64,000 nucleotides of DNA. Origin: a virus (taxonomy: Duplodnaviria > Caudoviricetes). Below the pieces are notes generated by a model, which saw only the letters and a program-made list of their open reading frames with translations, was not told where the DNA came from and made no database searches. The DNA lies in the IMG/VR virus record IMGVR_UViG_3300027782_000030, positions 1-64,000 of that record; one strand, written 5' to 3'. A program made the translations under genes and the position numbers. Below, piece after piece: positions 8,551 through 22,206 of the stretch (position 1 is its first letter; each line of letters opens with the position of its first letter).

Positions 8551-8578
8551 GTGTTGTTTTATACAACACTTTCCCACT

Positions 8579-8779: not shown

Positions 8780-8795
8780 ATAATTTCCTTTTGCT

Positions 8796-9248
8796 TTATT
8801 TATTAAAAACTTTTTGTATTTTAATACCACATTTATTTAAAAAATATACCCCATCTTCAGATCGGTAATCTTCTCCGTAATAGACTTCAGATATACCTGC
8901 TTGATATATTCCTTTCGCACATTCTAAACACGGAGCATGAGTTACAAATAAAGATGCTTTATTACCTGATCCATTAGTTTTTGCTAATTTCATTAATGCA
9001 TTCATTTCAGCATGTAATACTTCAGGTCTAGTTTTTAGTGTACAAGTATTATCTAATTCTTCACAAGGTGAAACAGGTATTTCATCTTCGCAATTGTTAT
9101 CCCAGCCAGCAGGCGTACCGTTATAACCATAACTGATAACACAATCATCTTTTACGATAACTGCACCAACTTGTAGCCTACGGGCATAACTTAATTGGGC
9201 AACTCGGGTAGCCCAATCCATATATAGATTAATAAATTTTTGTTTCAT
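8796..9248 (-). CDS. dCMP deaminase
   Basis: GYNGTP, HAEMNAL and PCLEC zinc motifs. Confidence 0.92.
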   Translation of the reverse strand: MKQKFINLYMDWATRVAQLSYARRLQVGAVIVKDDCVISYGYNGTPAGWDNNCEDEIPVSPCEELDNTCTLKTRPEVLHAEMNALMKLAKTNGSGNKASLFVTHAPCLECAKGIYQAGISEVYYGEDYRSEDGVYFLNKCGIKIQKVFNK

Positions 9249-9256
9249 TTGATGTT

Positions 9257-9330
9257 TGGAGCGGGTAGCGAGAATCGAACTCGCAAATAATCCTTGGCAA
9301 GGATTCAGGTTACCTTTACATCATACCCGC
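9257..9330 (-). tRNA. trnG: tRNA-Gly(GCC)
   Basis: Cloverleaf; AATCC-TTGCCAA-GGATT anticodon arm; encoded CCA. Confidence 0.93.
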
Positions 9331-10358
9331 GCTTTCAATGTAGCATTTACTCTACGAACACTGTGACTAATACCACAGTACTGTGTACACTTTGACATAA
9401 CATTCCTTAAGTTGTCAGTACCATACCAAAATCTTTTCAAGTCACCGTATCTCTTTATTTTAAACCCAGGGAACTTATGTGAGAAGCATAAACGGGCAAT
9501 CCCATCCATATCTACCATAATATTTCTGTCGAAGGAATTACAAATCAATTTTTCAGTACCTCGACCATTCCAACCGATCACCGCATCGTTGTTTTTGTGA
9601 ACACTACGATGGTACATCTCAACTGTTTCAATCCATTCAGGATCTAAACTTAGGTTATATTTTTCATTACAATCATTTAATATTTTAAACAACCCTTCAT
9701 GATCTCTAATGACATTGTTGTCGTAAAACTTATCAGCCCGTTGTTTGCCATCTTTATCTATCAGTGTACCAAACATTGGCTGAAGCCAATTTAATTTTAA
9801 CTTATCTGCTTTTAGATCATTCAATACAAAGTCATAAAATTTATCTAAATCTCTGTAATTTTGTTCGCACATTATAGACATTGCGTATACAGGATTAGAT
9901 TTATTTAATTCTTTTCTTGCTTGAAGCAATAGACGAATAGCATTAACAGCCATATCAAATGATCCTACCATGCCTCTAGTTGAATCATGTACTTCAGGTA
10001 TATAACTGTTTAGTGATATAGTAATCTCAGTTGGACCTTCAACGATTAACTTTTTAGCCATTGACAAATCAGTAACCATTGTACCGTTCATCACTGATAA
10101 ACATCTTAGTCCTAATTGGCGACAATATCTAGTAATTGGCCAATATCTTTCAGGATTCATTAATGCTTCACCGCCACATATTACTACTGCACCATGTGGA
10201 TTTAATTCATGAAATTCCTGAATAATATTCCCGCGTTCTTCTATAGTGATATGAGTAGGTAATACAACTTCTTCCCTAGTCCAATACATGCAGGTTTTAC
10301 ATTTTAGATTACACTGTAAGTTAGTATCTAAGAATAGAAATTTTGGCGGGTGATTCAT
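9321..10358 (-). CDS. Radical SAM protein with C-terminal Cys cluster
   Basis: CNLKCKTC motif, GGEAL; stop codon lies within tRNA-Gly. Confidence 0.88.
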   Translation of the reverse strand: MNHPPKFLFLDTNLQCNLKCKTCMYWTREEVVLPTHITIEERGNIIQEFHELNPHGAVVICGGEALMNPERYWPITRYCRQLGLRCLSVMNGTMVTDLSMAKKLIVEGPTEITISLNSYIPEVHDSTRGMVGSFDMAVNAIRLLLQARKELNKSNPVYAMSIMCEQNYRDLDKFYDFVLNDLKADKLKLNWLQPMFGTLIDKDGKQRADKFYDNNVIRDHEGLFKILNDCNEKYNLSLDPEWIETVEMYHRSVHKNNDAVIGWNGRGTEKLICNSFDRNIMVDMDGIARLCFSHKFPGFKIKRYGDLKRFWYGTDNLRNVMSKCTQYCGISHSVRRVNATLKARV

Positions 10359-10366
10359 TAATCTAT

Positions 10367-11035
10367 TTATGCAGGTTTATGCCCACTACTGTCAGTACCT
10401 GTTAATATCCAAGACTTTTCATGTCCTATTTGTATTGTAGGATCTCCCCATATAGTATATCCTAATTGTTTTACTCTGTGACAAAATCCTGTATCTTCTG
10501 ATAAAAAGGTTTCTCTTTCACTATCAGAAAATACTAGAGGTTTGAACCACGGGAATGTCAATGATTCAAATACACCCTTTTGAACACCCATGAATCCCAT
10601 GCCAGTTGCTAATAATTCAATTCGCTCGCCATTAACATCGACCTCATTCCTAGGCATCCAATTCATTGTGTTTTTTTCTTTACCTTCAACTGCCTGTGCG
10701 TATATTTTATTATTGTGTTGAATATAAAATCCAGTTACAATTTTATGTTCGGGGTTACTAATTAGTTTTTCTAAATCCTTAGGTGTCCAAACGCTATCAC
10801 TATCAATCCAAACAATCCAATCGTATTTTACTTTTCCATTAAATGGCTTGAAATCTTTAGGAGGATATCCTGTTCCACCTAATAACCAATTACGGCAATT
10901 ATAAATTACAGGTGTATAAGTAGTGCTAACATTAAATGCTATACCTTCTTTGTTTAACCAATTAACCGTATTAGTCCAACATGTCACCCACGTTCTACTA
11001 AATGACATTCCAGGAAAACAAAATACTATATTCAT
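10367..11035 (-). CDS. GT-A-fold glycosyltransferase-like protein
   Basis: WIDSD (DxD), ATGMGF, SEDTGFC, GHEK motifs. Confidence 0.7.
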   Translation of the reverse strand: MNIVFCFPGMSFSRTWVTCWTNTVNWLNKEGIAFNVSTTYTPVIYNCRNWLLGGTGYPPKDFKPFNGKVKYDWIVWIDSDSVWTPKDLEKLISNPEHKIVTGFYIQHNNKIYAQAVEGKEKNTMNWMPRNEVDVNGERIELLATGMGFMGVQKGVFESLTFPWFKPLVFSDSERETFLSEDTGFCHRVKQLGYTIWGDPTIQIGHEKSWILTGTDSSGHKPA

Positions 11036-11049
11036 AATTATTATTAATT

Positions 11050-11123
11050 TGGTGCCTCGTGACAGAATCGAACTGCCGAAACCGCCGTGTAAAGACGGAG
11101 TTATACCATTTAACTAACGAGGC
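11050..11123 (-). tRNA. trnV: tRNA-Val(TAC)
   Basis: Cloverleaf; loop TT-TAC-AC; CCA. Confidence 0.92.
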
Positions 11124-11133
11124 TTTTTTACTT

Positions 11134-11262
11134 TTAACCTTGCCCTCTATATTTTTTAAAACTTCTTTTTTCTGTTTTATTTAGAGTGCTAGTCTTAACC
11201 TTTCCACCTTGACTAGTTCGTTTAACAACCGATTTTGTAGTACCCTCAGATGCCTTAGCCAT
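11134..11262 (-). CDS. Small very basic protein (42 aa, ...KRSFKKYRGQG)
   Basis: AAGGA RBS and a GTAAATA late-type motif upstream; below ORF-track cutoff. Confidence 0.6.
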   Translation of the reverse strand: MAKASEGTTKSVVKRTSQGGKVKTSTLNKTEKRSFKKYRGQG

Positions 11263-11321
11263 ATAATATCCTTTTTAAAAATGTACAGTATTTACTTAGA
11301 ATACAGATACAGAAAAAAATA

Positions 11322-11759
11322 TTAAGCTAGGTATTCGTAATTGACAGTTTCTTTATTGGCTCTGAATACCGAAGCCCCATTCTTTAAATGAAATCTACGG
11401 GCCATTTCAGTTGGTGGGCTTAATGTTACAAACCTACTAATATGGGGTTTATTGGATTTAATGTAGTCTACTGCGTTTAAAATTAAATCTCTTCCAGCAC
11501 CTGGCTTATAACTCCATATAGTATAGAATATAGCCATGTTAGGATTGCTACCAAGATTAAACAATTCACTTTCTGTTGTAGGTATTTGATCTTGATAACT
11601 AACACAAGTAATTGCTTTTACCGTATTATTTTCGTCTTTTAAAACAAATATGTCTCTATTATTTCCTATTCTAATTGAATGTGGTATATTAGGACGAACG
11701 GGGTCCTCAGCCAAACGGGTAAACAATTCATCTTGGTCTGATTTAATCAAGTATAACAT
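11322..11759 (-). CDS. GNAT-like hypothetical protein
   Basis: FYTIWSYKPGAG...VTLSP...RFHLKNGA; true start MLYLIK (ORF-track start overlaps tRNA-Leu). Confidence 0.55.
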   Translation of the reverse strand: MLYLIKSDQDELFTRLAEDPVRPNIPHSIRIGNNRDIFVLKDENNTVKAITCVSYQDQIPTTESELFNLGSNPNMAIFYTIWSYKPGAGRDLILNAVDYIKSNKPHISRFVTLSPPTEMARRFHLKNGASVFRANKETVNYEYLA

Positions 11760-11797
11760 ATTGCTATTTATTATATGTAGATATAAAAGATATATTT

Positions 11798-11881
11798 TGG
11801 TGCCCCAGGTCGGACTCGAACCGACACGCATTTCTGCACTGGCTTCTAAGACCAGCATGGCTACCGTTACATCACCGGGGC
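11798..11881 (-). tRNA. trnL: tRNA-Leu(TAG)
   Basis: Long variable arm; CT-TAG-AA loop; CCA. Confidence 0.92.
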
Positions 11882-11890
11882 TAATATAAT

Positions 11891-11964
11891 TGGAGCGGGT
11901 AGAGGGAATCGAACCCTCGTATGCAGCTTGGAAGGCTGCCGTTCTACCATTGAACTACACCCGC
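11891..11964 (-). tRNA. trnG: tRNA-Gly(TCC)
   Basis: GCAGC-CTTCCAA-GCTGC; CCA. Confidence 0.95.
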
Positions 11965-11969
11965 ACTGT

Positions 11970-12059
11970 TGGTGGAAGCGGTGAGATTCGAACTCACGGA
12001 CCCCTTTCAGGGCCTTTAGTTTTCAAGACTAACGCAATAGGCCTCTCTGCCACGCTTCC
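11970..12059 (-). tRNA. trnS: tRNA-Ser(TGA)
   Basis: TTAGT-CTTGAAA-ACTAA; long variable arm; CCA. Confidence 0.93.
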
Positions 12060-12065
12060 TATATA

Positions 12066-12316
12066 GGGTGCTCTGCGTCCCTCGGCGGTAGTTATAGTAC
12101 ATCAAGCATATAGACCTCAGAACAACAATTAGTTCTTACCACATACTATCACACATACTTCACCCGCTCACGACAGGGACCGTTCTCGCATTGCCAGCGC
12201 CGGTTAGGTTAGACCGCATGTCGCCATGTGAAGATATTACTCTTCAGAACCACCCGTACATATCACTGTACTTCATATCCTCTGGGTCAGAGTATCCGTT
12301 GATTAGACGGAACGTC
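12066..12316 (-). ncRNA. Putative ~250-nt multi-helix structured RNA, family unassigned
   Basis: ORF-free, GC-richer than flanks; nested and local helices (GGGTGGTTCTG/CAGAGCACCC, GTCCCT/AGGGAC, TCCGT/ACGGA, CTCTG/CAGAG, GTACA/TGTAC, GAAGA/TCTTC, AGAAC/GTTCT). Confidence 0.65.
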
Positions 12317-12317
12317 T

Positions 12318-12405
12318 TGGCGGAGCGTTAGGGAGTCGAACCCTATCAACGATTACTCGTTGTACAGATTAGCAATCTGCTGCCTTACCATCCGGCCCAC
12401 GCTCC
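12318..12405 (-). tRNA. trnS: tRNA-Ser(GCT)
   Basis: TT-GCT-AA loop; long variable arm; CCA. Confidence 0.93.
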
Positions 12406-12409
12406 ATAA

Positions 12410-12475
12410 TGGATGAAAGAAGTGCGGGGGAAGGAGCAGTTACTCATCATCCGTTGTTTATCCCACACTCTTTCA
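12410..12475 (-). ncRNA. Long-stem small RNA ending in NCCA
   Basis: TGAAAGA-GTGTGGG pairs with CCCGCAC-T-TCTTTCA, followed by TCCA. Confidence 0.45.
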
Positions 12476-12478
12476 ACT

Positions 12479-12555
12479 TGGTGCCTCCGGAGGGACTTGA
12501 ACCCCCAACCAACGGCTTATGAGGCCGCTGCTCTAACCGATTGAGCTACAAAGGC
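12479..12555 (-). tRNA. tRNA-Met or Ile2 (CAT)
   Basis: GCGGC-CTCATAA-GCCGT; G1-C72 pair so not initiator; Met vs lysidine-Ile not resolvable by eye. Confidence 0.88.
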
Positions 12556-12974
12556 AATTCTTTTTTGTAATACTTTGCTAAATTATTCTTAGACCAACGA
12601 CCATTTCCCCGATTTGCACCAGCGAAATTTTCTGTTTGACTATGACAATTGGGACAAAGCAATCGCAAATTCTTTGGTTCGTTATTGTCAGCATTGCCAT
12701 CTATATGATCTACCTGCAAAACAATCTCTTTGCCATTGTATTCTGAAATACTACAGCATTCACATTTATAACCTCGTAACTCTGAAAGAATCTTTCTAAT
12801 TCTAGGTCTATGTGATACTTTACCCTCCATAAATTCTTGCTTACTTTTTTCGTGTATTTGTTTGGACCTTAGTTCAAGTTGACACTTATTGTTGCAGTAC
12901 TTATGTGTATAAGTATAACCCTTAAAAGGGATAAGGCTATCGCAATTCAGACATTTAAAAATATTATTTTTCAT
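12546..12974 (-). CDS. HNH (homing) endonuclease
   Basis: CECC...VDHIDGNADNN...NLRLLCPNCHS; N-terminal C..C/YCNNKCQ zinc motif; stop inside tRNA(CAT). Confidence 0.9.
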   Translation of the reverse strand: MKNNIFKCLNCDSLIPFKGYTYTHKYCNNKCQLELRSKQIHEKSKQEFMEGKVSHRPRIRKILSELRGYKCECCSISEYNGKEIVLQVDHIDGNADNNEPKNLRLLCPNCHSQTENFAGANRGNGRWSKNNLAKYYKKELPL

Positions 12975-13012
12975 GGTTAAAGCACTCTCTACTACTTATT
13001 TATGCCTTAACC
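12975..13012 (-). promoter_or_regulatory. Late promoter inside a start-sequestering hairpin
   Basis: GGTTAAGGCA/TGCTTTAACC 10-bp stem ending at the HNH ATG; CATAAATA at 12997-13004. Confidence 0.65.
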
Positions 13013-13032
13013 GAAATAATCATTTGTATACT

Positions 13033-13118
13033 TGGTGCCCGGGGCCGGACTCGAACCGGCACGCCTTGTGAGCGAGAGATTTTAAGTCTCTTGTGTCTAC
13101 CTATTTCACCACCCGGGC
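13033..13118 (-). tRNA. trnL: tRNA-Leu(TAA)
   Basis: AGAGA-CTTAAAA-TCTCT; long variable arm; CCA. Confidence 0.95.
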
Positions 13119-13160
13119 GTTAATTTTTAAAGAACTTCTGATTTCTCAGTGTATGTATAC

Positions 13161-13189
13161 ATTGTACACGACACCTGAACATTTGTCAA
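13161..13189 (-). promoter_or_regulatory. sigma70-type promoter for a tRNA block
   Basis: TTGACA-N17-TACAAT with TG. Confidence 0.8.
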
Positions 13190-13777
13190 TTATTTTAAGA
13201 GGCTTTCTACCCGATCTACAACTAGATCCCAATGTTCAGTAAACCTGTGACCACCGTTCTCTAAGACGGTCGTTGTTGCGTAAGGAAAGCCTTCTAGCAT
13301 AGACTCATAGGGGATGACCTCATCATCTTTAGCGACAAACAAGCTTATCAAGCTAGGTTCATATATCCTACGAACATATTCTCGCATATCGTCTAGCTTA
13401 TCCAAGTGGGCTAGAGAAACCAAAAATTCTTCACCAGTATGATAGTTTTTATTGGGTCCCAACTTCTCCTTAAGAGTCTCACTGGGTGTAACACTAGGGT
13501 TGACTAACACAGCACAACTGTCATATAAGTGACCGAAATGATTTGCGTAGAATGCTCCTAGACTAGTGCCAACGAATACCAATTTTTCATCTGGTCCCCT
13601 AGTTTTCATAAAGTTATGCACAATATTGTGCATTAGCGAGAACACTTCATCGGGGTCAAAAGGAAGATCGGGAGCGATTACCTTATCGTCGCCGAACCGT
13701 TCCTTAAGCGCAGTGACCTTATCACTAGCACCTGAACTCGCAAAACCGTGTAAGTAAACTATCATGTTGATGTCCAA
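13190..13777 (-). CDS. YqiA/YcfP-family alpha/beta-hydrolase (esterase)
   Basis: YLHGFASS, GTSLG nucleophile elbow, GGHRF. Confidence 0.88.
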   Translation of the reverse strand: MDINMIVYLHGFASSGASDKVTALKERFGDDKVIAPDLPFDPDEVFSLMHNIVHNFMKTRGPDEKLVFVGTSLGAFYANHFGHLYDSCAVLVNPSVTPSETLKEKLGPNKNYHTGEEFLVSLAHLDKLDDMREYVRRIYEPSLISLFVAKDDEVIPYESMLEGFPYATTTVLENGGHRFTEHWDLVVDRVESLLK

Positions 13778-13796
13778 AAGTTTCTATCTGAACTAT

Positions 13797-13825
13797 AGTA
13801 TAGCAAACTATAAAATAATTGTCAA
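13797..13825 (-). promoter_or_regulatory. sigma70-type promoter
   Basis: TTGACA-N17-TATACT with TG. Confidence 0.8.
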
Positions 13826-14451
13826 ATTTTGGATGCGATATTATCAGGAAGATTCTTTAAATCAAAGCCTAAATTAGCTAATTTTTCTTTACCTTGTGGA
13901 CTTAATTTGACAAATCCAACTATTATCTTTTCATGCGGTTCACCCTGAATTAATCTAGTATAATGATATCCATCAGGGTTTAATTCTAATATCTTTTTAC
14001 CAGTTAAAAACTCAGCATATTTATTGTCAATTGGCTTTGCGCCTGCTTTAAGCATTATTTTTTCAGCAGGTCCGCTTACTTCTGCCCATGCTCTTTTTGT
14101 TTTAATGTCATCATTTTTGAGCATATTATAATCTTTTAATCCTTGTGTAGTGGCTTTATATTTACCTTCAGGATTAAGTTCTGTTTCAGTAGCACTAGCA
14201 ATCATTTTAAAATTATCCGTATTAGGTACTTGTTTATAAACACCTAATGCAGTTATGTGATCACCACGGCGAACTACTTTCCAATAACCAGGATCATTTG
14301 CTAATTCTTCAGGACTATTGGCACTTTTAAAGCCGCCAATCTTTTTGTAACTACGCTGAAGCATATCCCATATTTTATCCGCATACTTCATTTTTTCTTC
14401 AGGAGTATGTAGATTAAGAACCTTTTCAACTAATAATTGATGATAACGCAT
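13822..14451 (-). CDS. Hypothetical phage protein
   Basis: 209-aa ORF preceded by CATAAATA. Confidence 0.7.
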   Translation of the reverse strand: MRYHQLLVEKVLNLHTPEEKMKYADKIWDMLQRSYKKIGGFKSANSPEELANDPGYWKVVRRGDHITALGVYKQVPNTDNFKMIASATETELNPEGKYKATTQGLKDYNMLKNDDIKTKRAWAEVSGPAEKIMLKAGAKPIDNKYAEFLTGKKILELNPDGYHYTRLIQGEPHEKIIVGFVKLSPQGKEKLANLGFDLKNLPDNIASKI

Positions 14452-14455
14452 CTAG

Positions 14456-14498
14456 TATTTATGCAATGCGGCAATATCATATCTACAATGCATAAATA
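14456..14498. promoter_or_regulatory. Back-to-back T4-late-like promoters
   Basis: TATTTATGCA...TGCATAAATA 10-bp inverted repeat between divergent genes. Confidence 0.65.
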
Positions 14499-14505
14499 AC
14501 AATGT

Positions 14506-15396
14506 ATGAACAATATCTATTTAGTTTCGTTTCTTGGTGGAGGAGGTGGTGATTTTTTATGCTCTCAAATTTCTAAAGACTGTAATTTTTATCCATTAGA
14601 ATATACAATTAATTCTGTTACTAATACCTGTGATTTAACAAATCCATTTTTAAAATGGAATATTGACTTAAAAAATCATCTTAGATTTAAAGTATTAGAA
14701 ATTTCTGATGTTATCTTAGAAGAAATAGATTTATATTATAATGAAAAAAATTTAGTAGCACCTACTCATTTTTTTGGTAATCTTAGTGAAATTAAATTGC
14801 CTAGGCTTAAAGGAGTTCACCTATACACTAAACAATTTTTTCCCCTTTTCTATCTGTTGTTATGGATAAAAAGATGGGTTCTCATACAAGAGTTTGAAAA
14901 TAAAGAGATTTTTTTAAGAAAGGTAATAAGTGCTAGTAGTTTGCCCAATGATGCCTATGCTAAAATCTTTAGAGATAAAATAGCAGATAATATATTGGCA
15001 AATAGAAATTTTGTGTATGAGTTTGAACTAAGAGCCGCAACCAGATTATTTCGTAATGCTATAGATTGCGTTGAATGGTTTTATAGATATTATTGTTTTG
15101 TTTTTGCCTTTCCTAATCCTCACACCGTATCTAAAGATTGGATTCCATATAATATAGATAATCTCTACTTAGACCCAGTTAATAACTCAGAAGAATTTTG
15201 TCAACTGTTCAATATGGAAAAACCAATCGATCCTGAAATTATTGTATCATACTATTCTAAAAATTTACAGGTAATCGAAGAAATATTCGGCGAACCATAT
15301 GAAGTTTTTATTCTAGGTGACTGGTTATCAAAATTAAAAAAATGGATTGAACTTAAATGTCCAAATTCATATTCAGTCGATTTTAAAATTTTATAG
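14506..15396 (+). CDS. Hypothetical protein, paralogue 1 (GGGGGDFL N-terminus)
   Basis: 296 aa; tandem paralogue of the next ORF; Gly-rich loop suggests a P-loop/sulfotransferase-like fold (weak). Confidence 0.7.
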   Translation: MNNIYLVSFLGGGGGDFLCSQISKDCNFYPLEYTINSVTNTCDLTNPFLKWNIDLKNHLRFKVLEISDVILEEIDLYYNEKNLVAPTHFFGNLSEIKLPRLKGVHLYTKQFFPLFYLLLWIKRWVLIQEFENKEIFLRKVISASSLPNDAYAKIFRDKIADNILANRNFVYEFELRAATRLFRNAIDCVEWFYRYYCFVFAFPNPHTVSKDWIPYNIDNLYLDPVNNSEEFCQLFNMEKPIDPEIIVSYYSKNLQVIEEIFGEPYEVFILGDWLSKLKKWIELKCPNSYSVDFKIL

Positions 15397-15404
15397 GAAA
15401 ATCA

Positions 15405-16301: not shown

Positions 16302-17234
16302 TATAGGAACCCATTGTTCTCTTAGTTGAGTCATACTATTTTTAAAACCAGCAGGTGTTAATTCTCTTTCTTCTATAAACATATAATTTTGATCAAAAAA
16401 CTTTTTGGCTTCAACAGATCGTATTGTACGAGAAAAGTTTTCCACATACCATTTAACTATATCCTGATCAATACCTTTGGGCAATATTATACCCCAAGCT
16501 GCATATACATTCATTCCCGGCACCCATCGATTCATCAATGGAGCATCAATTCCTGCTATAGGTTTTTCACCACATATGCCAATAAATTTAATTTTTCCAC
16601 TAGACAACAATGTAGCGGCTACCGCAGTAGGGACAATACCAAACTCAACATGACCTCCGGCAACGTCTTGTGCGGCTTGAGCAGGACCTTTATATCCCAC
16701 AGTCTTAACTAAATCACTGACTTTGACTTTGGTAGTCATATATTCAAATGCTAATTTATGAGCACCGCTACCAGCAGCAAAAGTAATAGGTTTGTCGGTA
16801 TTTTTAATTTTTTCTAATAATTCAGGCACACTATTAACAGTGCTACCACTATAAGCAATAATGGCTAATGGACTTTTGCCAATGGTAACTACATATTCAA
16901 AATCTTCTAAAGTATATTTTACAGCTGGTTTATTGAAGAATTCAGCAGTGACCCAAATTCCTTGATGACTAGGCACATATAAATGATAGCCATCTGCTGG
17001 CTTTTTGATGAATTCATTCATAGCCACCACACCATCTGCGCCTGGCTTGTTTTCAATAACGAAATTAATTTTAGGATTAGATTTTTCTAATATACTACCA
17101 ATACCACGAAACCCTATTTCATTACCCGATCCTGGTGCGAACCCTATCAGTACATTAATAGGTTTAGTTGGTTCCCAAGCTAAGGCCAACATTGATGATG
17201 TTGCTAATAGCAAACTAATAAATGCTTTTTTCAT
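16278..17234 (-). CDS. Bug/TctC tripartite tricarboxylate transporter substrate-binding protein
   Basis: Signal peptide; P.KPI...IGFAPG, ENKPGADG, YKG...AQDVAGGHV motifs. Confidence 0.88.
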   Translation of the reverse strand: MKKAFISLLLATSSMLALAWEPTKPINVLIGFAPGSGNEIGFRGIGSILEKSNPKINFVIENKPGADGVVAMNEFIKKPADGYHLYVPSHQGIWVTAEFFNKPAVKYTLEDFEYVVTIGKSPLAIIAYSGSTVNSVPELLEKIKNTDKPITFAAGSGAHKLAFEYMTTKVKVSDLVKTVGYKGPAQAAQDVAGGHVEFGIVPTAVAATLLSSGKIKFIGICGEKPIAGIDAPLMNRWVPGMNVYAAWGIILPKGIDQDIVKWYVENFSRTIRSVEAKKFFDQNYMFIEERELTPAGFKNSMTQLREQWVPILQNFKID

Positions 17235-17241
17235 ATTTTTC

Positions 17242-17499
17242 CTATTTGAAATAAAGATAAAGTAATCCGGGGATTATAATAAAAAATTGAGGAATAAAAT
17301 TAAGCATCAATGCTTTTTCTTTCCATTTATACCCAACATATATCCATCCACTAGCCCCTATCATTTGTACAATACTATTCCATGGGGTAATCCCTAAAAC
17401 ATGTAATACCATTGCACATAGTATTATTAAAGCACTAGCATATTTAATATAAAAAACATGGTCTTTCATTTTAATATAGTTACTAATATATCTGACCAT
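17242..17499 (-). CDS. Small membrane protein
   Basis: Three hydrophobic helices. Confidence 0.6.
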   Translation of the reverse strand: MVRYISNYIKMKDHVFYIKYASALIILCAMVLHVLGITPWNSIVQMIGASGWIYVGYKWKEKALMLNFIPQFFIIIPGLLYLYFK

Positions 17500-18056
17500 T
17501 TATTTTTTACCTCTATAGTTTGATTAAAGTTAGAGTCAATCCAACTTGATGTAAAGTAACTCCAAGTCAGATTATGCTTATAAGCAAATTCTAATATATG
17601 AGCATTTTGATTGCTTATTTCCCCTAACATATTGGTACTGTTTTTATACCATGTATAATCAGGATACTTAATGCTAAACCCACCTGCTTCATGCCACCAA
17701 GCATAACTAGTTATGTCCGGTCTATAAATTAACATTATCCAATCATCAGGAAAAAATGTTTTAACATCATCTAAGATGTATGCCCAATCATGGCTTTTGA
17801 TTAATCTTGTACCATCTAAATTAGACCATGCTTGATCTATGTATTCAGCATCAAGCATTGCATCGAACTCCATGTTTTGTCCGAAATACGCACCTTTATG
17901 CCCGGTGAAACCATTGTGATTATATTCTCTTTCAGGAGTGCGGTCACTTGTATTGAATCCATCTAGGCTTTCAATAGTCTGTGCTATGCCACTCCAGCGA
18001 CTTCCTGGTACTCCAGTAAAAAATATCCTTTTAGGAAGTTCTATGCCATTCTGCAT
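17466..18056 (-). CDS. Hypothetical protein, P-loop/sulfotransferase-like
   Basis: IFFTGVPGSRWSG, LIKSH, LIYRP motifs. Confidence 0.55.
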   Translation of the reverse strand: MQNGIELPKRIFFTGVPGSRWSGIAQTIESLDGFNTSDRTPEREYNHNGFTGHKGAYFGQNMEFDAMLDAEYIDQAWSNLDGTRLIKSHDWAYILDDVKTFFPDDWIMLIYRPDITSYAWWHEAGGFSIKYPDYTWYKNSTNMLGEISNQNAHILEFAYKHNLTWSYFTSSWIDSNFNQTIEVKNKWSDILVTILK

Positions 18057-18564
18057 ATAATCTAGGTCTTGTTAGATGTTCATCTATTTTTTCTACTGTT
18101 TGAACATAATTATGCTTTTTGGCAAATACATTTAATTTTTCAAAAGTCCAAGGAAAAAAAGGAACATTAAAACATTCCTTATTTTCATGATCATGCCGTC
18201 CTGGGTTTAATCTCCAATATATTCTTGATGTCGGAGCTAAACAATTTACTACTTTGTCAATTTGCCGTTCTATAATTTCGGTATTGCCAAAATTTATACT
18301 GCCCAAACAAGTGGCTACATCAAATAATCTAGTTGGTTGATAATCCTCTATTGTACATTTAAAATCAGCTTGATCAAATGCAGGATCTATGCCTATAACA
18401 TTTTTTACTAGAGATTTAAAAGGATTAGTGCCACATCCTACATCTAACAACCATTCATTATCATTAATGAAGGTTGAGATTCTTGCGGGGCTAGTTAATC
18501 CTCTTGAGTCACCTGATACCCAATGTTTAGAAAAATATTTATTTATTAACGTTTGATCATGCAT
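18031..18564 (-). CDS. Class I SAM-dependent methyltransferase
   Basis: LLDVGCG, VIGID. Confidence 0.78.
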   Translation of the reverse strand: MHDQTLINKYFSKHWVSGDSRGLTSPARISTFINDNEWLLDVGCGTNPFKSLVKNVIGIDPAFDQADFKCTIEDYQPTRLFDVATCLGSINFGNTEIIERQIDKVVNCLAPTSRIYWRLNPGRHDHENKECFNVPFFPWTFEKLNVFAKKHNYVQTVEKIDEHLTRPRLYAEWHRTS

Positions 18565-18626
18565 TTAATCATTTACCGCAATTAGAAAAATATTTATTAT
18601 CTTATCTATACACGGAAAATATTATT

Positions 18627-18704
18627 TGGAAGTGCGGGTGGGATTCGCACCCACGGCTTTACGGATTTGCAATCCGTTCCATTGGACTACTCTGGCACCG
18701 CACT
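18627..18704 (-). tRNA. trnC: tRNA-Cys(GCA) with atypical T-loop
   Basis: ACGGA-TTGCAAA-TCCGT; U discriminator; T-loop TGCGAAT. Confidence 0.85.
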
Positions 18705-18705
18705 A

Positions 18706-18761
18706 TAGATCAGGCTTCGCACCTGACTGGACATTTGCTAGCGCACTCAGTTTAATGTCTA
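18706..18761 (-). ncRNA. tRNA-like small element with T-arm mimic
   Basis: TCAGG-TGCGAAG-CCTGA hairpin, GACATT/AATGTC stem, TAGA/TCTA closure. Confidence 0.4.
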
Positions 18762-18772
18762 AATCATCAACT

Positions 18773-18846
18773 TGGCAGGGGTATAGGGACTTGAACCCCA
18801 ACGAACGGAATCAAAATCCGGTATGCTACCATTACATCATACCCCA
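18773..18846 (-). tRNA. trnQ: tRNA-Gln(TTG)
   Basis: TT-TTG-AT loop; CCA. Confidence 0.9.
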
Positions 18847-18853
18847 ATTGTCT

Positions 18854-18930
18854 TGGTGGGTCCACCCGGACTCGAACCGGGAACTCTCAGTTTAAAAGAC
18901 TGATACTCTGACCAATTGAGTTATGGACCC
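18854..18930 (-). tRNA. trnK: tRNA-Lys(TTT)
   Basis: TCAGT-CTTTTAA-ACTGA; CCA. Confidence 0.93.
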
Positions 18931-18944
18931 GAAAACTTAGCTCC

Positions 18945-19054
18945 CCATTATAGAAGCACACTCGCATCTGCCTTTGGAGCCGCGTGTTCTCCGCCCTTGA
19001 TTCTAGACTAGTACTAGGGGCGTGTGCTCATTTACACCAGTGCTTCTATAATGG
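18945..19054 (-). ncRNA. tRNA-trailer structured RNA, copy type A
   Basis: Perfect 15-bp closing stem CCATTATAGAAGCAC/GTGCTTCTATAATGG with internal hairpins. Confidence 0.55.
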
Positions 19055-19127
19055 CTCCCCGGGGTAGGATCGAACTACCGACACCCTGATTAACAGTCAG
19101 GTGCAACTACCGCTGTGCTACCGGGGA
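19052..19127 (-). tRNA. trnN: tRNA-Asn(GTT)
   Basis: CCTGA-CTGTTAA-TCAGG; CCA. Confidence 0.93.
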
Positions 19128-19133
19128 ATAAAC

Positions 19134-19340
19134 TTACAACTCTACACGCTCACGAAAATAAGAGTCCCAACCCTCTTCAGGAGGAGCTCCTATTACACGA
19201 GTTTCAACAAAAAATCGGTAATCTCCAAAAGTTACAGTGTATTCACGGGCGGCGTCAACTGCCTGTGAACGTGATTCATAGACACCAAGAACTTCTGTCC
19301 CTTCAGGACCTTCATCAGTGACTAGAACATATACTTGCAT
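19134..19340 (-). CDS. Small hypothetical protein
   Basis: 68 aa; AAGGA RBS; consensus promoter upstream. Confidence 0.65.
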   Translation of the reverse strand: MQVYVLVTDEGPEGTEVLGVYESRSQAVDAAREYTVTFGDYRFFVETRVIGAPPEEGWDSYFRERVEL

Positions 19341-19381
19341 GATCGTTCCTTTGCTGTTCGTTTTTTCTCACTACAGAAACT

Positions 19382-19410
19382 ATTATACATGCCTACCGAT
19401 TAATTGTCAA
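19382..19410 (-). promoter_or_regulatory. sigma70-type promoter
   Basis: TTGACA-N17-TATAAT with TG. Confidence 0.85.
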
Positions 19411-19448
19411 ACGCTTGTTGCTAGTTGTTTTTTAGCAACAATTAAATT

Positions 19449-19525
19449 TGGTGCCTCCACCTGGATTTGAACCAGGGACTTCCACCTTATCAAGATGGCA
19501 CTCTGACCAACTGAGTTATAGAGGC
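19449..19525 (-). tRNA. trnI: tRNA-Ile(GAT)
   Basis: TT-GAT-AA loop; CCA. Confidence 0.93.
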
Positions 19526-19529
19526 TATT

Positions 19530-19604
19530 TGGTACTCGGTACGGGAGTCGAACCCGTCTTTCCAACGTGAAAGGCTAGCGTCCTAACCAATAGACGAACC
19601 GAGC
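19530..19604 (-). tRNA. trnE: tRNA-Glu(TTC)
   Basis: CT-TTC-AC loop; CCA. Confidence 0.92.
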
Positions 19605-19628
19605 AATAGTTGAGGGATAAATATTGCT

Positions 19629-20327
19629 ATGTTTAATTATAACTCAATATACATTAATTATGCAAATATGAGCATACCCTGGTGTCCAATGGACACGGCA
19701 CAACTCTATATGAAAAATCGTATTAAAAATATCAAAATGTTAAAACAAAACGGTTGGATAAATAATACTTTTGATTATTCATTTAATTCTAAAGGATTTA
19801 GATGTAAAGAGTTCACATCTGATCCTACAATTATGTTTTTAGGCTGTAGTTATACCTGTGGTATTGGGTTACCTGTTGAAACTATTTGGCCTGAATTAGT
19901 AGCCAAATCATTAAAAATGAAATGTGCTAATTTGGGACAGGGCGCAGGATCGTGTGATACTGCATTTAGATTATGTTTGGGATATATTGATAAAATTAAA
20001 CCAAAAATTGTTATTTTTTTACAGCCACCAAATATTCGTTGGGAATTAGTTTCAAAAAATAATATAAATTTATTAGGTATATGGGCAGTAGATAAGATTA
20101 GTAATTATAAAAGTTATATACAAGACTATAGCATTGACGAAAATAATAACTATTTTAATAGTTATAAAAATATTCTAGCAGTTGAATCGTTGTGTGAAAA
20201 AAGGCAAATAAAATTTTTGCATTTTGATTCATATAATCATGGCAAATCTGATTTAGCAAGAGATTTAGTACATCCCGGAATTGAGGCTAACTTACAATTT
20301 TCTACCATGGTATTATCTAAATTATAA
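19629..20327 (+). CDS. Hypothetical protein, SGNH-like
   Basis: FLGCSYTCG...DLARDLVHPG; own ATAAATA motif; antisense to flanking tRNAs. Confidence 0.6.
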   Translation: MFNYNSIYINYANMSIPWCPMDTAQLYMKNRIKNIKMLKQNGWINNTFDYSFNSKGFRCKEFTSDPTIMFLGCSYTCGIGLPVETIWPELVAKSLKMKCANLGQGAGSCDTAFRLCLGYIDKIKPKIVIFLQPPNIRWELVSKNNINLLGIWAVDKISNYKSYIQDYSIDENNNYFNSYKNILAVESLCEKRQIKFLHFDSYNHGKSDLARDLVHPGIEANLQFSTMVLSKL

Positions 20328-20337
20328 GGTTAATTTT

Positions 20338-20415
20338 TGGTCGGGGATGCAGGATTCGAACCTGCGACCTTCTGCTCCCAAAGCAGACCGTCTAACCGGA
20401 CTGACGTAATCCCCG
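20338..20415 (-). tRNA. trnP: tRNA-Pro(TGG)
   Basis: TCTGC-TTTGGGA-GCAGA; CCA. Confidence 0.93.
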
Positions 20416-20527
20416 AATTCTATGGCTCCGGTGGATGGAATCGAACCACCACTAGCGGTTTTGGAGACCGCCGCACTGCCATTATACTACACCGGAATTG
20501 TTTGGTGGAGTGTACTGGGATCGAACC
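20416..20527. repeat. 112-bp direct repeat A, copy 1 (tRNA-Trp plus 3' end of tRNA-Tyr)
   Basis: Identical to 21814-21925. Confidence 0.9.
20423..20496 (-). tRNA. trnW: tRNA-Trp(CCA), copy 1
   Basis: GCGGT-CTCCAAA-ACCGC; CCA. Confidence 0.92.
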
Positions 20528-20577
20528 CGTCTTTCCAGCGTGAAAGGCTAGCGTCCTAACCAATAGACGAACCGAGC
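20503..20577 (-). pseudogene. Chimeric tRNA: 5' tRNA-Glu(TTC) fused in the T-loop to 3' tRNA-Tyr
   Basis: 5' strand GCTCGGT cannot pair with 3' ACACTCC; junction in shared TTCGA. Confidence 0.85.
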
Positions 20578-20602
20578 AATTTATGTGTTATTAAGGTTTT
20601 AT
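20565..20602. repeat. 38-bp direct repeat B, copy 1 (tRNA-Glu 5' end plus leader)
   Basis: Matches 21276-21313 with one mismatch. Confidence 0.85.
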
Positions 20603-20655
20603 GTAATAATGGCTATATACAAATTTATTTTTATCAATAGTACTAAATAGTTAGT

Positions 20656-21276
20656 ATGAACCTCTATTCTACAACTCTTAAATTTGATTTACCTCTTTTT
20701 AAAACTAACCTAACACCCGTAGAATTTTTAAAAAATCATCCACTATGGGAAGATAGTATTAAAAAAAATCCTAACTCAATGAGTCATATTAAGTTAGACT
20801 GGCAAACTAATTTAAGTGACCAACTAAATCAATTCTTTTTAGATCATGATCTAGAAATTCGATTGTGCGAGGTTCTTTATAAGCCACCCAATGCATTTAG
20901 TAAAATACATATTGACGGTAACGATCCCTCCAAAAACGATTTAACTAAAATAAATTGGGTTATAGGCGGTGAAGATAGTAAAATGGTTTGGTATGATATC
21001 AAAGATTCCTATTACGCTAAGCCTTTAAGTGATTCATTGGTTAAAACCTCGACTTCATACGCGGCATATGCTATTGTTTATATACCAGAAGATGTCAATG
21101 AAGTATATAGTGAAAATATTCGAGGTCCTTCATTAGTACAAGTTGGTATACCTCACAATGTCATCACCAACAGTCAAGCACGTTGGTGTATGAGTATAAT
21201 TTTTAGAGATCTTAAACTTGGACGACGACCTACAATGATGGAAGCTAGAGAGATATTCAAACAGTATCTACCTTAA
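20656..21276 (+). CDS. 2OG-Fe(II) oxygenase-like (DSBH) protein
   Basis: HID...PHNV...RWCMSIIF (HxD...H...R). Confidence 0.6.
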   Translation: MNLYSTTLKFDLPLFKTNLTPVEFLKNHPLWEDSIKKNPNSMSHIKLDWQTNLSDQLNQFFLDHDLEIRLCEVLYKPPNAFSKIHIDGNDPSKNDLTKINWVIGGEDSKMVWYDIKDSYYAKPLSDSLVKTSTSYAAYAIVYIPEDVNEVYSENIRGPSLVQVGIPHNVITNSQARWCMSIIFRDLKLGRRPTMMEAREIFKQYLP

Positions 21277-21313
21277 GACGAACCGAGCAATTTATGTGTT
21301 ATAAAGGTTTTAT
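21276..21313. repeat. 38-bp direct repeat B, copy 2
   Basis: Matches 20565-20602. Confidence 0.85.
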
Positions 21314-21798
21314 TTATTAAGTACTTCTTTGATGTAATTCCAATCTTCATATAAACTTAAAGAGAATATAAATCTTGTTTCTGATGTTGGATTATTCACA
21401 CTGTGAATTACCGTAGTGTTAATTACACTAGGAAAAAGCTCATTGTAGGCATGTTCACAAATTAAATTAAGGTTTTCCGTACGAAAACATACAGGACTTT
21501 TACTCCAAGTTCCAATCAATGGAAAATTAATTGATGCTTTTCTAACTACATCTTTATGTGGTATTAAAACTTTGTACGGACTCAACTCTGAAAAAAATGT
21601 TTTTCTTAACTCAATTTCAAAAAAAGGAAATTGTTTATACAAATCTTCAAATACAGTGTTAAAGTTTGGTCTCAAATATTTAGTAGTTTTAATTTCATTT
21701 ACCCAAGATTCCTTAGGATAACTTTGCATTATATCAATAAGTGCTTGCTTATCCCATTTAATATTTGGCAATTCAATATAGCAATCATCATCGTTCAT
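21310..21798 (-). CDS. 2OG-Fe(II) oxygenase-like protein
   Basis: PHKD...SINFPL...IHSVNN...RFIFSLS. Confidence 0.65.
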   Translation of the reverse strand: MNDDDCYIELPNIKWDKQALIDIMQSYPKESWVNEIKTTKYLRPNFNTVFEDLYKQFPFFEIELRKTFFSELSPYKVLIPHKDVVRKASINFPLIGTWSKSPVCFRTENLNLICEHAYNELFPSVINTTVIHSVNNPTSETRFIFSLSLYEDWNYIKEVLNK

Positions 21799-21813
21799 TT
21801 TACTCTCTTTTAA

Positions 21814-21925
21814 AATTCTATGGCTCCGGTGGATGGAATCGAACCACCACTAGCGGTTTTGGAGACCGCCGCACTGCCATTATACTACACCGGAATTGTT
21901 TGGTGGAGTGTACTGGGATCGAACC
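21814..21925. repeat. 112-bp direct repeat A, copy 2
   Basis: Identical to 20416-20527. Confidence 0.9.
21821..21894 (-). tRNA. trnW: tRNA-Trp(CCA), copy 2
   Basis: Identical to 20423-20496. Confidence 0.92.
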
Positions 21926-21986
21926 AGTCGTGCCATAAAGACGGCGGATTTACAGTCCACTGCATCACCATTGATGCTTCCACTCC
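21901..21986 (-). tRNA. trnY: tRNA-Tyr(GTA)
   Basis: CT-GTA-AA loop; long variable arm; CCA. Confidence 0.93.
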
Positions 21987-22053
21987 ATATTGAAACACAC
22001 TCTTCTCTTTATGGTCGCCGCCTAGGTTCGGCTCAGAATGTGCTTCAATATGG
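21985..22053 (-). ncRNA. tRNA-trailer structured RNA, copy type B
   Basis: 15-bp stem CCATATTGAAGCACA/TGTGTTTCAATATGG with one G-U pair that works only on the minus strand; related to 18945-19054. Confidence 0.5.
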
Positions 22054-22126
22054 CGCGACTGGAGAGATTCGAACTCCCGACAGACCGGGTAGAAGCCGGA
22101 TACTCTATCCACTGAGTTACAGTCGC
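22051..22126 (-). tRNA. trnR: tRNA-Arg(TCT)
   Basis: CT-TCT-AC loop; CCA. Confidence 0.9.
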
Positions 22127-22130
22127 AATA

Positions 22131-22206
22131 TGGCTCCTCGACCTGGGCTCGAACCAGGGACCAACGGATTAACAGTCCGGCACTCTACCAACTGAGCTAT
22201 CGAGGA
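22131..22206 (-). tRNA. trnN: tRNA-Asn(GTT), second divergent copy
   Basis: CT-GTT-AA loop; CCA; sequence differs from 19052-19127. Confidence 0.93.

What the first reader, a model, noticed from the sequence alone, without database searches (positions are those of the whole stretch)
9321..22206. Three ORFs use tRNA positions 8-10 as their stop codon
Seen: the radical SAM gene (stop 9321-9323, TGA in tRNA-Gly), the HNH gene (12546-12548, TAG in tRNA-CAT) and the DUF6492-like gene (22197-22199, TAG in tRNA-Asn) each read 7 nt into a tRNA and end exactly at tRNA nt 8-10. Established: RNase P cuts at tRNA +1. Inference: tRNA maturation removes the stop codon and leaves a non-stop mRNA, so protein output competes with tRNA processing. 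It may also be the footprint of an insertion route targeting tRNA 5' ends. Caveat: U8-R9-R10 often spells a stop, so any read-in has about a one-in-three chance of landing in frame.
Basis: partly seen in the sequence, partly recalled or inferred. Interest (0 to 1): 0.7.

Follow-up and report, generated by a model that had tools for sequence, protein, structure and literature searches.

The report
Phage genes borrowing tRNA stop codons
Three real genes in a giant lake phage's tRNA cluster have no stop codon of their own and end at the UAG/UGA formed by bases 8-10 of the next tRNA; this is a common side-effect of tight packing and of selfish nuclease genes landing between tRNAs, and I found no evidence that it is a control device.

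Summary
ARAGORN and Rfam agree on the tRNA 5' ends. Three genes with Pfam support (radical SAM, HNH, DUF6492) stop exactly at tRNA nt 8-10.

The three junctions arose separately:
- **HNH:** a clean 470-nt insertion into a 7-nt tRNA-Leu/tRNA-Met spacer that sister phages keep empty.
- **Radical SAM:** relatives carry their own stop plus a 19-nt spacer, or no tRNA at all.
- **DUF6492:** 72-76% relatives also stop at nt 8-10, but of tRNA-Ala. One 56% relative reads into that tRNA-Ala in another frame after a 1-nt indel.

I surveyed 1136 tRNAs on unrelated viral contigs.
- 53% spell a stop at nt 8-10.
- 33 long ORFs read into a tRNA, and 12 of them end at nt 8. That is about twice the random-frame expectation.
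- Half of those 12 are homing-type nucleases.
- Frames are otherwise close to random.

GenBank already annotates similar overlaps (Felix O1 ORF44, T5-like HdH2), and this scan noted an HNH borrowing a tRNA stop on other DNA.

Loss of the stop codon after RNase P cleavage follows from the geometry. It was not tested, and nothing shows selection for it. This is an ordinary new example of a known kind of genome compaction.

The parts
9321..10358 (-). Radical SAM gene (345 aa). Its stop, TGA 9323-9321, is tRNA-Gly nt 8-10, and the last residues (A)RV are encoded by the tRNA.
   Evidence: In 37 relatives the conserved core ends at NATLK/NATKK and the tails vary.
9257..9330 (-). tRNA-Gly(GCC), with A10 (TGA at nt 8-10). 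The dCMP deaminase start codon follows 8 nt after its CCA.
   Evidence: (57.9 bits). The ortholog in the L029 clade has TGG at nt 8-10 and sits 19 nt after the gene's own stop.
12546..12974 (-). HNH homing-type endonuclease gene (142 aa). Its stop, TAG 12548-12546, is tRNA-Met nt 8-10. The tail KELPL extends beyond the homolog's C-terminus ...YYK.
12557..13026 (-). HNH cassette of about 470 nt, inserted into the 7-nt tRNA-Leu/tRNA-Met spacer. It is absent from the sister contigs L012, L005 and L043, whose flanks are 98-100% identical.
12479..12555 (-). tRNA(CAT). The empty-site alleles have C at nt 5 where this copy has T, which turns C5-G68 into a G-U pair.
   Evidence: (70.7 bits).
13033..13118 (-). 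tRNA-Leu(TAA), 6 nt upstream of the insertion point. It is the recurrent neighbour of this HNH family in other phages.
13161..13189 (-). Sigma-70-like promoter match (TTGACA-17-TACAAT) just before tRNA-Leu(TAA). If it is used, the HNH gene lies inside a tRNA operon.
   Evidence: This is a consensus match only, and such matches are not enriched over shuffled sequence.
22197..23015 (-). DUF6492-family gene (272 aa). Its stop, TAG 22199-22197, is tRNA-Asn nt 8-10. The tail FFPR extends beyond the homologous C-terminus.
22131..22206 (-). tRNA-Asn(GTT), which supplies the stop codon of the DUF6492 gene.
   Evidence: (65.1 bits).
8796..9248 (-). dCMP deaminase gene directly after tRNA-Gly. Excision of the tRNA would split the glycosyltransferase-radical SAM-deaminase transcript.
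   Evidence: In relative L006 the deaminase follows the radical SAM gene directly with no tRNA between them.

Best explanation
The three stop-in-tRNA junctions are tolerated by-products of how this jumbo phage's tRNA array is built and rebuilt. Genes are packed against tRNA 5' ends. Spacers are lost, tRNAs are swapped, and homing endonuclease genes drop into spacers only a few nucleotides long. An ORF left without its own stop then runs into the tRNA. In the frame that reads nt 8-10 as a codon it is stopped at once, because U8-A/G9-G/A10 spells UAG, UAA or UGA in about half of all tRNAs. That adds only two tRNA-encoded residues. The other two frames give tails of a dozen or more junk residues, or read right through the tRNA, so they survive less often. 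What is shown: the geometry, the independent origin of each junction, and the frequency of the pattern across viral contigs. What is inferred: the genes and tRNAs are co-transcribed; RNase P cleavage at +1 yields an mRNA without a stop codon; and this costs little, because an mRNA cut off from a downstream tRNA is degraded within seconds anyway, as measured for E. coli secG-leuU.
For: 1. Independent origins.
- HNH is a clean 470-nt insertion with empty sites in three sister contigs. Its 70% homolog has its own TAA 13 nt before a tRNA-Met.
- The radical SAM overlap occurs only in relatives at 97% identity or more. The 78% clade has its own TGA, a 19-nt spacer and a tRNA-Gly with TGG at nt 8-10. 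Other relatives have no tRNA there.
- The DUF6492 gene abuts tRNA-Ala in 72-76% relatives with the stop at nt 8-10. A 1-nt indel puts the 56% relative into another frame with a 13-residue tail.
2. Relatives also show read-ins in other frames: stops at nt 13, 39, 43 and 52, one of them an epimerase gene with strong Pfam support.
3. Survey of 1136 viral tRNAs.
- 53% have a stop at nt 8-10.
- 39 gene stops lie 3-10 nt upstream of a tRNA.
- 33 independent read-ins split 15:12:6 by frame.
- 12 end at nt 8, against 5.8 expected (p = 0.008).
- The median first stop is nt 8 in that frame, against nt 37 and nt 48 in the other two.
4. The tRNA-derived tails lie beyond the conserved C-termini in all three genes.
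5. Public annotation already holds such overlaps: Felix O1 ORF44 with tRNA-Ile (TGA at nt 5-7) and HdH2 gp177 with tRNA-Thr.
6. In E. coli secG-leuU, one RNase P cut separates the mRNA from the tRNA, and the mRNA then decays in under 30 s (PMC2241853).
Against: The DUF6492 gene has depended on a tRNA-borne stop across relatives down to 56% identity, shown from DNA. The peptide ending of the 52% relative suggests the same, but no DNA was available for it. The dependence persisted through a change of partner tRNA from Ala to Asn, which is longer than a transient accident would suggest. The window has about six times more nt-8 junctions per gene-to-tRNA junction than the survey average. The nt-8 endpoint is about twice as frequent as random frames predict; this fits selection for short tails but does not exclude selection for the arrangement itself. 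No transcript or protein data were obtained.
Confidence: 0.75

Rival explanations
1. Processing-coupled expression control. Placing the stop inside the tRNA is selected because RNase P cleavage turns the message into a non-stop mRNA. Ribosomes then stall, the product is tagged by tmRNA and destroyed, and output of the upstream gene is capped or tied to tRNA maturation. For a homing nuclease, which is potentially toxic, this would be useful.
For: The geometry guarantees that the RNase P product lacks the stop. No terminator-like site lies at the three gene-tRNA junctions or inside the three genes. The DUF6492 gene keeps a tRNA-borne stop across deep divergence and a change of partner tRNA. Half of the surveyed nt-8 read-in genes are nucleases. 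Bacterial precedent for regulation through a processed non-stop mRNA exists in arfA (PMC3989581, PMC10107115, from the search).
Against: Close homologs of the HNH and radical SAM genes work with their own stops and spacers. Frames of read-ins are near random. Nucleases are about as common among genes that stop 3-10 nt before a tRNA (6-7 of 20) as among those that stop at nt 8 (6 of 12; Fisher p = 0.47). No ArfB, Pth or tmRNA gene was found in the 200-kb record. secG mRNA is already destroyed after RNase P cleavage even with its stop intact, so the stop position adds little.
Confidence: 0.12
2. All three junctions are footprints of mobile cassettes that target tRNA flanks. On this view the radical SAM and DUF6492 genes were also delivered next to tRNAs by homing or co-conversion.
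For: The HNH case is proven as an insertion. The DUF6492 gene lies between different tRNA pairs in different phages, and an HNH_5 gene recurs nearby. The array shows other cassette gains, such as the duplicated tRNA-Trp bracketing two genes. One third to one half of genes abutting viral tRNA 5' ends are homing-type nucleases.
Against: The order radical SAM then tRNA-Gly(GCC) is shared with the 78% clade, where a spacer and the gene's own stop are present, so this junction looks like spacer loss. No empty-site allele of the radical SAM or DUF6492 genes was seen among sister contigs. Neither gene encodes a nuclease.
Confidence: 0.1
3. Artefact: tRNA 5' ends or ORFs are mis-called, or the tRNAs are dead copies, so nothing is really shared.
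For: tRNA-Gly(GCC) has an unusual A10 and one mismatch in its D stem. The CAT tRNA has two G-U pairs in its acceptor stem.
Against: Two independent programs give identical 5' ends with scores far above threshold. All acceptor stems pair. All three ORFs have Pfam domains and full-length homologs. Three tRNAs in the window share TGATGTAA, so A10 is a habit of this phage.
Confidence: 0.03

Closest known systems
Felix O1 ORF44 (HNH endonuclease, NP_944863) overlapping tRNA-Ile, and T5-like phage HdH2 gp177 (HNH) overlapping tRNA-Thr
   Same: A free-standing HNH gene inside a phage tRNA array whose annotated CDS ends inside or on the first bases of the next tRNA (TGA at nt 5-7; TAG ending on nt 1). 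HdH2 gp177 is a homolog of the window's HNH (39% identity).
   Different: The endpoint is not nt 8-10, and these are isolated single cases. The window has three junctions, two of which involve genes that are not nucleases.
T4 SegB, a free-standing GIY-YIG homing endonuclease in the T4 tRNA cluster (PMC2330249)
   Same: A selfish nuclease gene lodged among phage tRNA genes, absent from close relatives, and recognising a conserved tRNA-gene sequence. The window's HNH shows the same presence/absence pattern.
   Different: A different nuclease fold (HNH versus GIY-YIG). Cleavage specificity was not tested here. That paper does not describe a stop codon borrowed from a tRNA.
E. coli secG-leuU co-transcript (PMC2241853)
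   Same: A protein gene directly upstream of a tRNA on one transcript. A single RNase P cut at tRNA +1 releases the mRNA, which then decays in under 30 s.
   Different: secG keeps its own stop 14 nt before the tRNA. In the window the spacer is effectively -10, so the released mRNA would lack a stop.
arfA non-stop mRNA regulation (PMC3989581, PMC10107115)
   Same: Endonucleolytic processing removes the stop codon, so the product becomes subject to trans-translation.
   Different: The arfA arrangement is conserved and demonstrated by experiment. RNase III and a hairpin do the cutting, not RNase P and a tRNA. Here nothing shows selection or tagging.
Mitochondrial tRNA punctuation with incomplete stop codons (own knowledge: Ojala et al. 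1981; non-stop mRNAs in human mitochondria, PMC9674279)
   Same: mRNAs flanked by tRNAs, with their ends defined by tRNA excision.
   Different: In mitochondria, polyadenylation completes U or UA to UAA. Here the RNase P products end in ...GC...TT and ...TT, and added A residues would give GCA or TTA, not a stop (read directly).

Membership tests
Free-standing HNH homing endonuclease gene of phage tRNA arrays | HNH (His-Me finger) catalytic motif is intact | tested here: met
   Pfam HNH_3 6e-06 and HNH 2.2e-04, both above the curated cut-offs. The motif DHIDGN...N...CPNCH is present.
Free-standing HNH homing endonuclease gene of phage tRNA arrays | Presence/absence polymorphism with a clean empty site in close relatives | tested here: met
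   A 470-nt insertion. L012, L005 and L043 have only the 7-nt spacer, and the flanks are 98-100% identical.
Free-standing HNH homing endonuclease gene of phage tRNA arrays | Family members recur beside tRNA genes in unrelated phages | tested here: met
   14 of 14 members examined lie within 130 nt of a tRNA. Six have tRNA-Leu(UAA) as a neighbour and five overlap the downstream tRNA.
Free-standing HNH homing endonuclease gene of phage tRNA arrays | Site-specific cleavage of the empty allele, and homing in mixed infection | not testable with these tools
   Needs purified enzyme or co-infection experiments.
Programmed non-stop mRNA regulation (arfA type) | The processing site lies upstream of the only in-frame stop | tested here: met
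   tRNA +1 lies 7 nt before the stop in all three genes. That RNase P cuts there is established knowledge and was not shown for this phage.
Programmed non-stop mRNA regulation (arfA type) | The arrangement is conserved among homologs | tested here: not met
   Radical SAM and HNH homologs have their own stops and spacers. Only the DUF6492 subfamily keeps a tRNA-borne stop, and distant DUF6492 homologs do not.
Programmed non-stop mRNA regulation (arfA type) | The product is tagged or repressed by trans-translation | not testable with these tools
   No usable RNA or protein data. The one metatranscriptome run held only low-depth contigs of a relative.
Mitochondrial-type tRNA punctuation with completed stop codons | Polyadenylation of the cleaved mRNA creates a stop codon | tested here: not met
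   The cleaved ends would be ...AAA GC...GAA TT and ...TTT TT. Adding A residues gives GCA or TTA, which are sense codons.
Gene-tRNA overlap by genome compaction | Neighbouring junctions are also tightly packed, and read-ins occur in several frames in relatives | tested here: met
   Window spacings are 24, -10, 6, 71, -10, 198 and -10 nt, and the next gene starts 8 nt after tRNA-Gly. Relatives have stops at nt 13, 39, 43 and 52. In the survey 39 gene stops lie at -10 to -3.

The most novel reading that the evidence does not exclude
Protein genes embedded in phage tRNA operons are expressed from tRNA-punctuated transcripts. On these, RNase P cleavage deliberately produces non-stop mRNAs, so tRNA maturation throttles the upstream protein through ribosome stalling and trans-translation. 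Nucleases and the long-persisting DUF6492-tRNA junction would be the clearest cases. This would be a phage counterpart of mitochondrial tRNA punctuation and of arfA-type control, acting at about 1% of phage tRNA genes.
Probability: 0.12. Interest if true: 0.65.

Novelty: new member of a known kind. Interest (0 to 1): 0.33.

Why it matters
For annotation: gene callers and curators often forbid or trim CDS-tRNA overlaps. In my sample about 1 viral tRNA in 90 supplies the stop codon of the upstream gene at nt 8-10, and about 1 in 35 is entered by an upstream ORF. Such overlaps should be expected, not 'corrected'.

For biology: the survey gives a simple rule. U8-R9-R10 acts as a built-in backstop terminator. 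A third to a half of the genes pressed against tRNA 5' ends are homing-type nucleases.

The window's HNH family appears tied to tRNA-Leu(UAA). That makes it a testable candidate for a tRNA-gene-specific homing enzyme like T4 SegB.

The regulatory reading, if it were ever shown, would link tRNA processing to ribosome rescue during infection. The present evidence does not favour it.

Tried and rejected
- **RNA evidence.** One lake metatranscriptome run held 10% of the sampled words. When laid on 8500-24500 it gave only short, low-depth contigs of a 90-97% relative. None bridged a junction and none showed ends. It gives no information either way.
- **Close relatives of the DUF6492 gene.** The single-protein scan of viral contigs found none, and five relatives' records had none. 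The alignment scan of viral contigs gave only 27-46% homologs, almost all outside tRNA arrays and all with their own stops. The metagenome scan gave two loci. Protein search plus contig look-ups were what worked.
- **Megablast against GenBank phages.** It matched only tRNA pieces, so there is no cultured close relative.
- **A10 in tRNA-Gly as an adaptation creating the stop.** Rejected, because three tRNAs in the window share TGATGTAA.
- **Completion of a stop by polyadenylation.** Rejected from the sequence.
- **Phage-encoded ribosome rescue.** No RF-1/ArfB-type or Pth domain and no tmRNA were found in the 200-kb record, which is only about 58% complete.
- **T4-type late promoter word TATAAATA.** It is not enriched, and no copy lies between 9257 and 24110. 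Sigma-70-like and terminator-like matches are no more frequent than in shuffled sequence.
- **Literature.** Seven full-text searches found no paper that counts or explains stop codons inside phage tRNAs. Absence from that library is not proof that none exists.


Full report
**What the window is.** The window is the first 64 kb of a 200,570-bp IMG/VR viral contig, estimated about 58% complete, with 36% G+C. It is a T4-like jumbo phage from lake metagenomes, with no cultured close relative. All 21 of its tRNA genes lie on the minus strand between 9257 and 24110, interleaved with protein genes.

**The observation.** ARAGORN and Rfam give identical 5' ends for the three tRNAs: 9330, 12555 and 22206, at 57.9, 70.7 and 65.1 bits. 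The sequences read GCGGGTA-TGA, GCCTTTG-TAG and TCCTCGA-TAG. The ORFs 9321-10358 (345 aa), 12546-12974 (142 aa) and 22197-23015 (272 aa) end on those triplets, which are tRNA nt 8-10. They carry Radical_SAM, HNH and DUF6492 domains and have full-length homologs.

The window has seven junctions where a gene is followed by a tRNA on the same strand. Their spacings are 24, -10, 6, 71, -10, 198 and -10 nt. The next gene begins 8 nt after tRNA-Gly. The region is therefore packed very tightly throughout.

**History of the HNH junction.** Sister contigs L012, L005 and L043 have tRNA-Leu(TAA), a 7-nt spacer and then the CAT tRNA. The window carries a 470-nt insertion (13026-12557) inside that spacer, and the flanks are 98-100% identical. 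The inserted ORF has no stop of its own and ends ...YYKKELPL*. A 70% homolog in another jumbo-phage contig ends ...YYK* with its own TAA, 13 nt before a tRNA-Met. Sister contig L043 has a 40%-identical HNH inserted elsewhere, between tRNA-Gln and tRNA-Asp. The G of its TAG is tRNA-Asp nt 1.

I examined 14 members of this HNH family from very different phages: T5-like, T4-like, cyanophage, crAss-like, Herelleviridae, jumbo phages and a Streptomyces phage.
- All 14 lie within 130 nt of a tRNA gene.
- Five lie just after a tRNA-Leu(UAA), and one lies just before one.
- Five overlap the downstream tRNA, with stops beginning at -2, -2, nt 7, nt 8 and nt 13.

This junction is therefore a homing-type insertion into a spacer too short to hold a stop codon. 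The recurrent neighbour is tRNA-Leu(UAA), not the tRNA that is read into.

**History of the radical SAM junction.** Thirty-seven related loci were recovered.
- Only the three at 97-99% identity share the overlap.
- The conserved protein ends at NATLK/NATKK, and the tails after that differ in every lineage.
- An 88% relative has the deaminase gene directly after the radical SAM gene, with no tRNA between them.
- The 78% clade has the gene's own TGA, a 19-nt spacer, and a tRNA-Gly(GCC) whose nt 8-10 read TGG.

In the window only two nucleotides separate the last conserved codon from tRNA +1. This looks like recent spacer loss. A10, which makes the TGA, occurs in three tRNAs of this phage, so it need not be an adaptation.

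**History of the DUF6492 junction.** Homologs at 72-76% identity end ...KYLGV*. Their DNA shows TTG GGG GTG TAG, which means they also stop at nt 8-10, but of tRNA-Ala(TGC).
- A 56% homolog abuts the same tRNA-Ala with one extra nucleotide. It reads in another frame and gains a 13-residue tail.
- A 52% homolog ends ...SLGL*, which fits TTG GGG CTA TAG of a tRNA-Ala. No DNA was available to check this.
- In the window lineage the partner is tRNA-Asn, preceded by an 11-nt leader, and the tail is FFPR.
- Homologs at 27-46% identity lie almost all outside tRNA arrays and have their own stops.

So this gene has relied on a tRNA-borne stop for a long time and through a change of partner. This is the one observation that speaks for more than a transient accident. 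Such a state can also persist neutrally, because the last two codons are frozen by the acceptor stem.

**Other read-ins in the clade.** Relatives have long ORFs stopping at tRNA nt 13, 39, 43 and 52. One is an epimerase gene with strong Pfam support. In relative L372, the homolog of the window's gene at 11322-11762 stops at nt 8-10 of tRNA-Val, whereas the window has a 198-nt spacer there.

**Survey against a random-frame null.** Three T-arm patterns, chosen to be blind to the 5' end, pulled 292 loci (2.5 Mb) from IMG/VR with 1136 distinct tRNAs.
- 599 tRNAs (53%) have a stop at nt 8-10: TAG 523, TAA 40, TGA 36.
- 173 same-strand ORFs of at least 100 aa end between -200 and the tRNA 3' end. 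Of these, 39 stop 3-10 nt upstream.
- Counting ORFs that run right through the tRNA, there are 33 independent read-ins. Their frames split 15:12:6.
- Twelve stop exactly at nt 8, against 5.8 expected from one-third times 0.53 (p = 0.008).
- The median first stop is nt 8 in that frame but nt 37 and nt 48 in the other two. In those frames 35% and 45% of tRNAs hold no stop at all.
- ORFs on the opposite strand entering from the 3' side show no comparable peak.

Read-ins are therefore common, at about 1 tRNA in 35. Nt 8 is the most frequent endpoint, at about 1 tRNA in 90. The roughly two-fold excess fits selection for short tails. Per junction, the window has about six times the survey rate (p about 0.01), but it was singled out for this feature.

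**What kinds of genes read in.**
- Of the 12 nt-8 genes in the survey, six are nucleases: HNH, SegE-type GIY-YIG, endonuclease VII, endonuclease I-like (two) and SNase.
- Of the 18 other read-ins, three are HNH or His-Me nucleases.
- Of the first 20 genes that stop 3-10 nt upstream of a tRNA, six or seven are such nucleases.

The differences among these classes are not significant. All are far above the small share of such genes that I would expect in an ordinary phage genome, which is my own knowledge and was not measured here. Homing-type genes are thus a major source of genes pressed against tRNA 5' ends, whether or not they overlap.

**How it most likely works.** Shown: the stop codons lie 7 nt inside the tRNAs, and the extra residues lie beyond the conserved protein ends. 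Inferred: each gene and its tRNA are co-transcribed. No terminator-like site lies at a junction or inside the three genes. A sigma-70-like site at 13189-13161 would put the HNH gene inside a tRNA operon, but such matches are no more frequent than in shuffled sequence.

RNase P cuts at tRNA +1, which is established knowledge. The released upstream RNA would therefore lack a stop codon. In E. coli secG-leuU, one RNase P cut frees secG mRNA with 14 nt after its stop. The co-transcript and the freed mRNA each have half-lives under 30 s (PMC2241853). A gene upstream of a tRNA is therefore already translated mainly before processing, and losing the stop as well should add little cost. That would explain why the arrangement is tolerated. 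Polyadenylation could not restore a stop here.

**Comparison with what is known.** GenBank already annotates HNH CDSs overlapping tRNAs: Felix O1 ORF44 with tRNA-Ile, 7 nt, TGA at nt 5-7; and HdH2 gp177 with tRNA-Thr, 1 nt. T4 SegB is the studied example of a homing nuclease living among tRNA genes and recognising them (PMC2330249). Earlier notes of this scan, on other DNA, reported an HNH in a Felix O1-type phage that 'borrows its stop codon from the next tRNA', and a gene running 51 nt into a tRNA after a deletion. I re-checked the Felix O1 case myself. My paper searches found no systematic count or explanation of the nt 8-10 endpoint.

**Verdict.** That inference remains possible (about 0.12) and can be tested in culturable phages.

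Noticed in passing
window 21904-21986 (-) and 20512-20572 (-): Rfam gives two extra weak tRNA-like hits (34.3 and 29.8 bits), each just 5' of one of the two tRNA-Trp copies. ARAGORN does not call them. They may be degenerate or chimeric tRNAs.
   Followed up: no
window 20423-21894: The two tRNA-Trp(CCA) copies have the same first 16 nt, the same length and the same Rfam score. They bracket genes 21798-21310 (-) and 20656-21276 (+). Sister contig L043 has Arg-Trp-Pro-Ile contiguous without these genes, so this is a cassette gain with duplication of the tRNA.
   Followed up: partly
L043:11851-12556 versus window 18627-18846: The sister phage has an HNH gene plus tRNA-Asp after tRNA-Gln, where the window has tRNA-Cys. 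A nuclease and its adjoining tRNA appear to have been swapped in as a unit.
   Followed up: partly
window 9246-9323: If the radical SAM TGA were read through, the frame stays open across the whole tRNA-Gly. It is in frame with the dCMP deaminase ATG at 9248 (75 nt, 25 codons). This is probably coincidence.
   Followed up: no
window 11322-11858 (-): The longest ORF starts inside tRNA-Leu(TAG), and the real start is probably the ATG at 11762. Its 149-aa homolog in L372 (weak MCD-like Pfam hit) ends at TAG nt 8-10 of tRNA-Val.
   Followed up: partly
L074:2851-3222 (-), an unrelated viral contig: A 124-aa gene with an RF-1 domain (ArfB/ICT1-like peptidyl-tRNA hydrolase, 7e-16) ends just 1 nt before a tRNA-Pro in a phage tRNA array. 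A phage-borne ribosome-rescue factor beside tRNAs may deserve its own look.
   Followed up: no
window 23373-23933 (-); L343:805-1083; contig of P0013: An HNH_5-type gene recurs near DUF6492 homologs in three diverged phages. In the other two it is a shorter form of 91-92 aa.
   Followed up: no
window 14506-15396 (+) and 15405-16301 (+): Two tandem paralogous genes (296 and 298 aa, with near-identical N- and C-termini) lie on the opposite strand inside the tRNA region. They were not scanned against Pfam.
   Followed up: no
L375 (Enterococcus phage iF6, MT909815.1:40421-42201) and L340 (Synechococcus phage DSL-LC03): In iF6 the HNH ORF is not annotated, and the tRNAs are listed on the strand opposite to the one ARAGORN finds. 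The ORF reads 12 nt into tRNA-Thr. In DSL-LC03 the four tRNAs around the HNH gene are not annotated, and the CDS ends at tRNA-Thr nt 7-9.
   Followed up: partly
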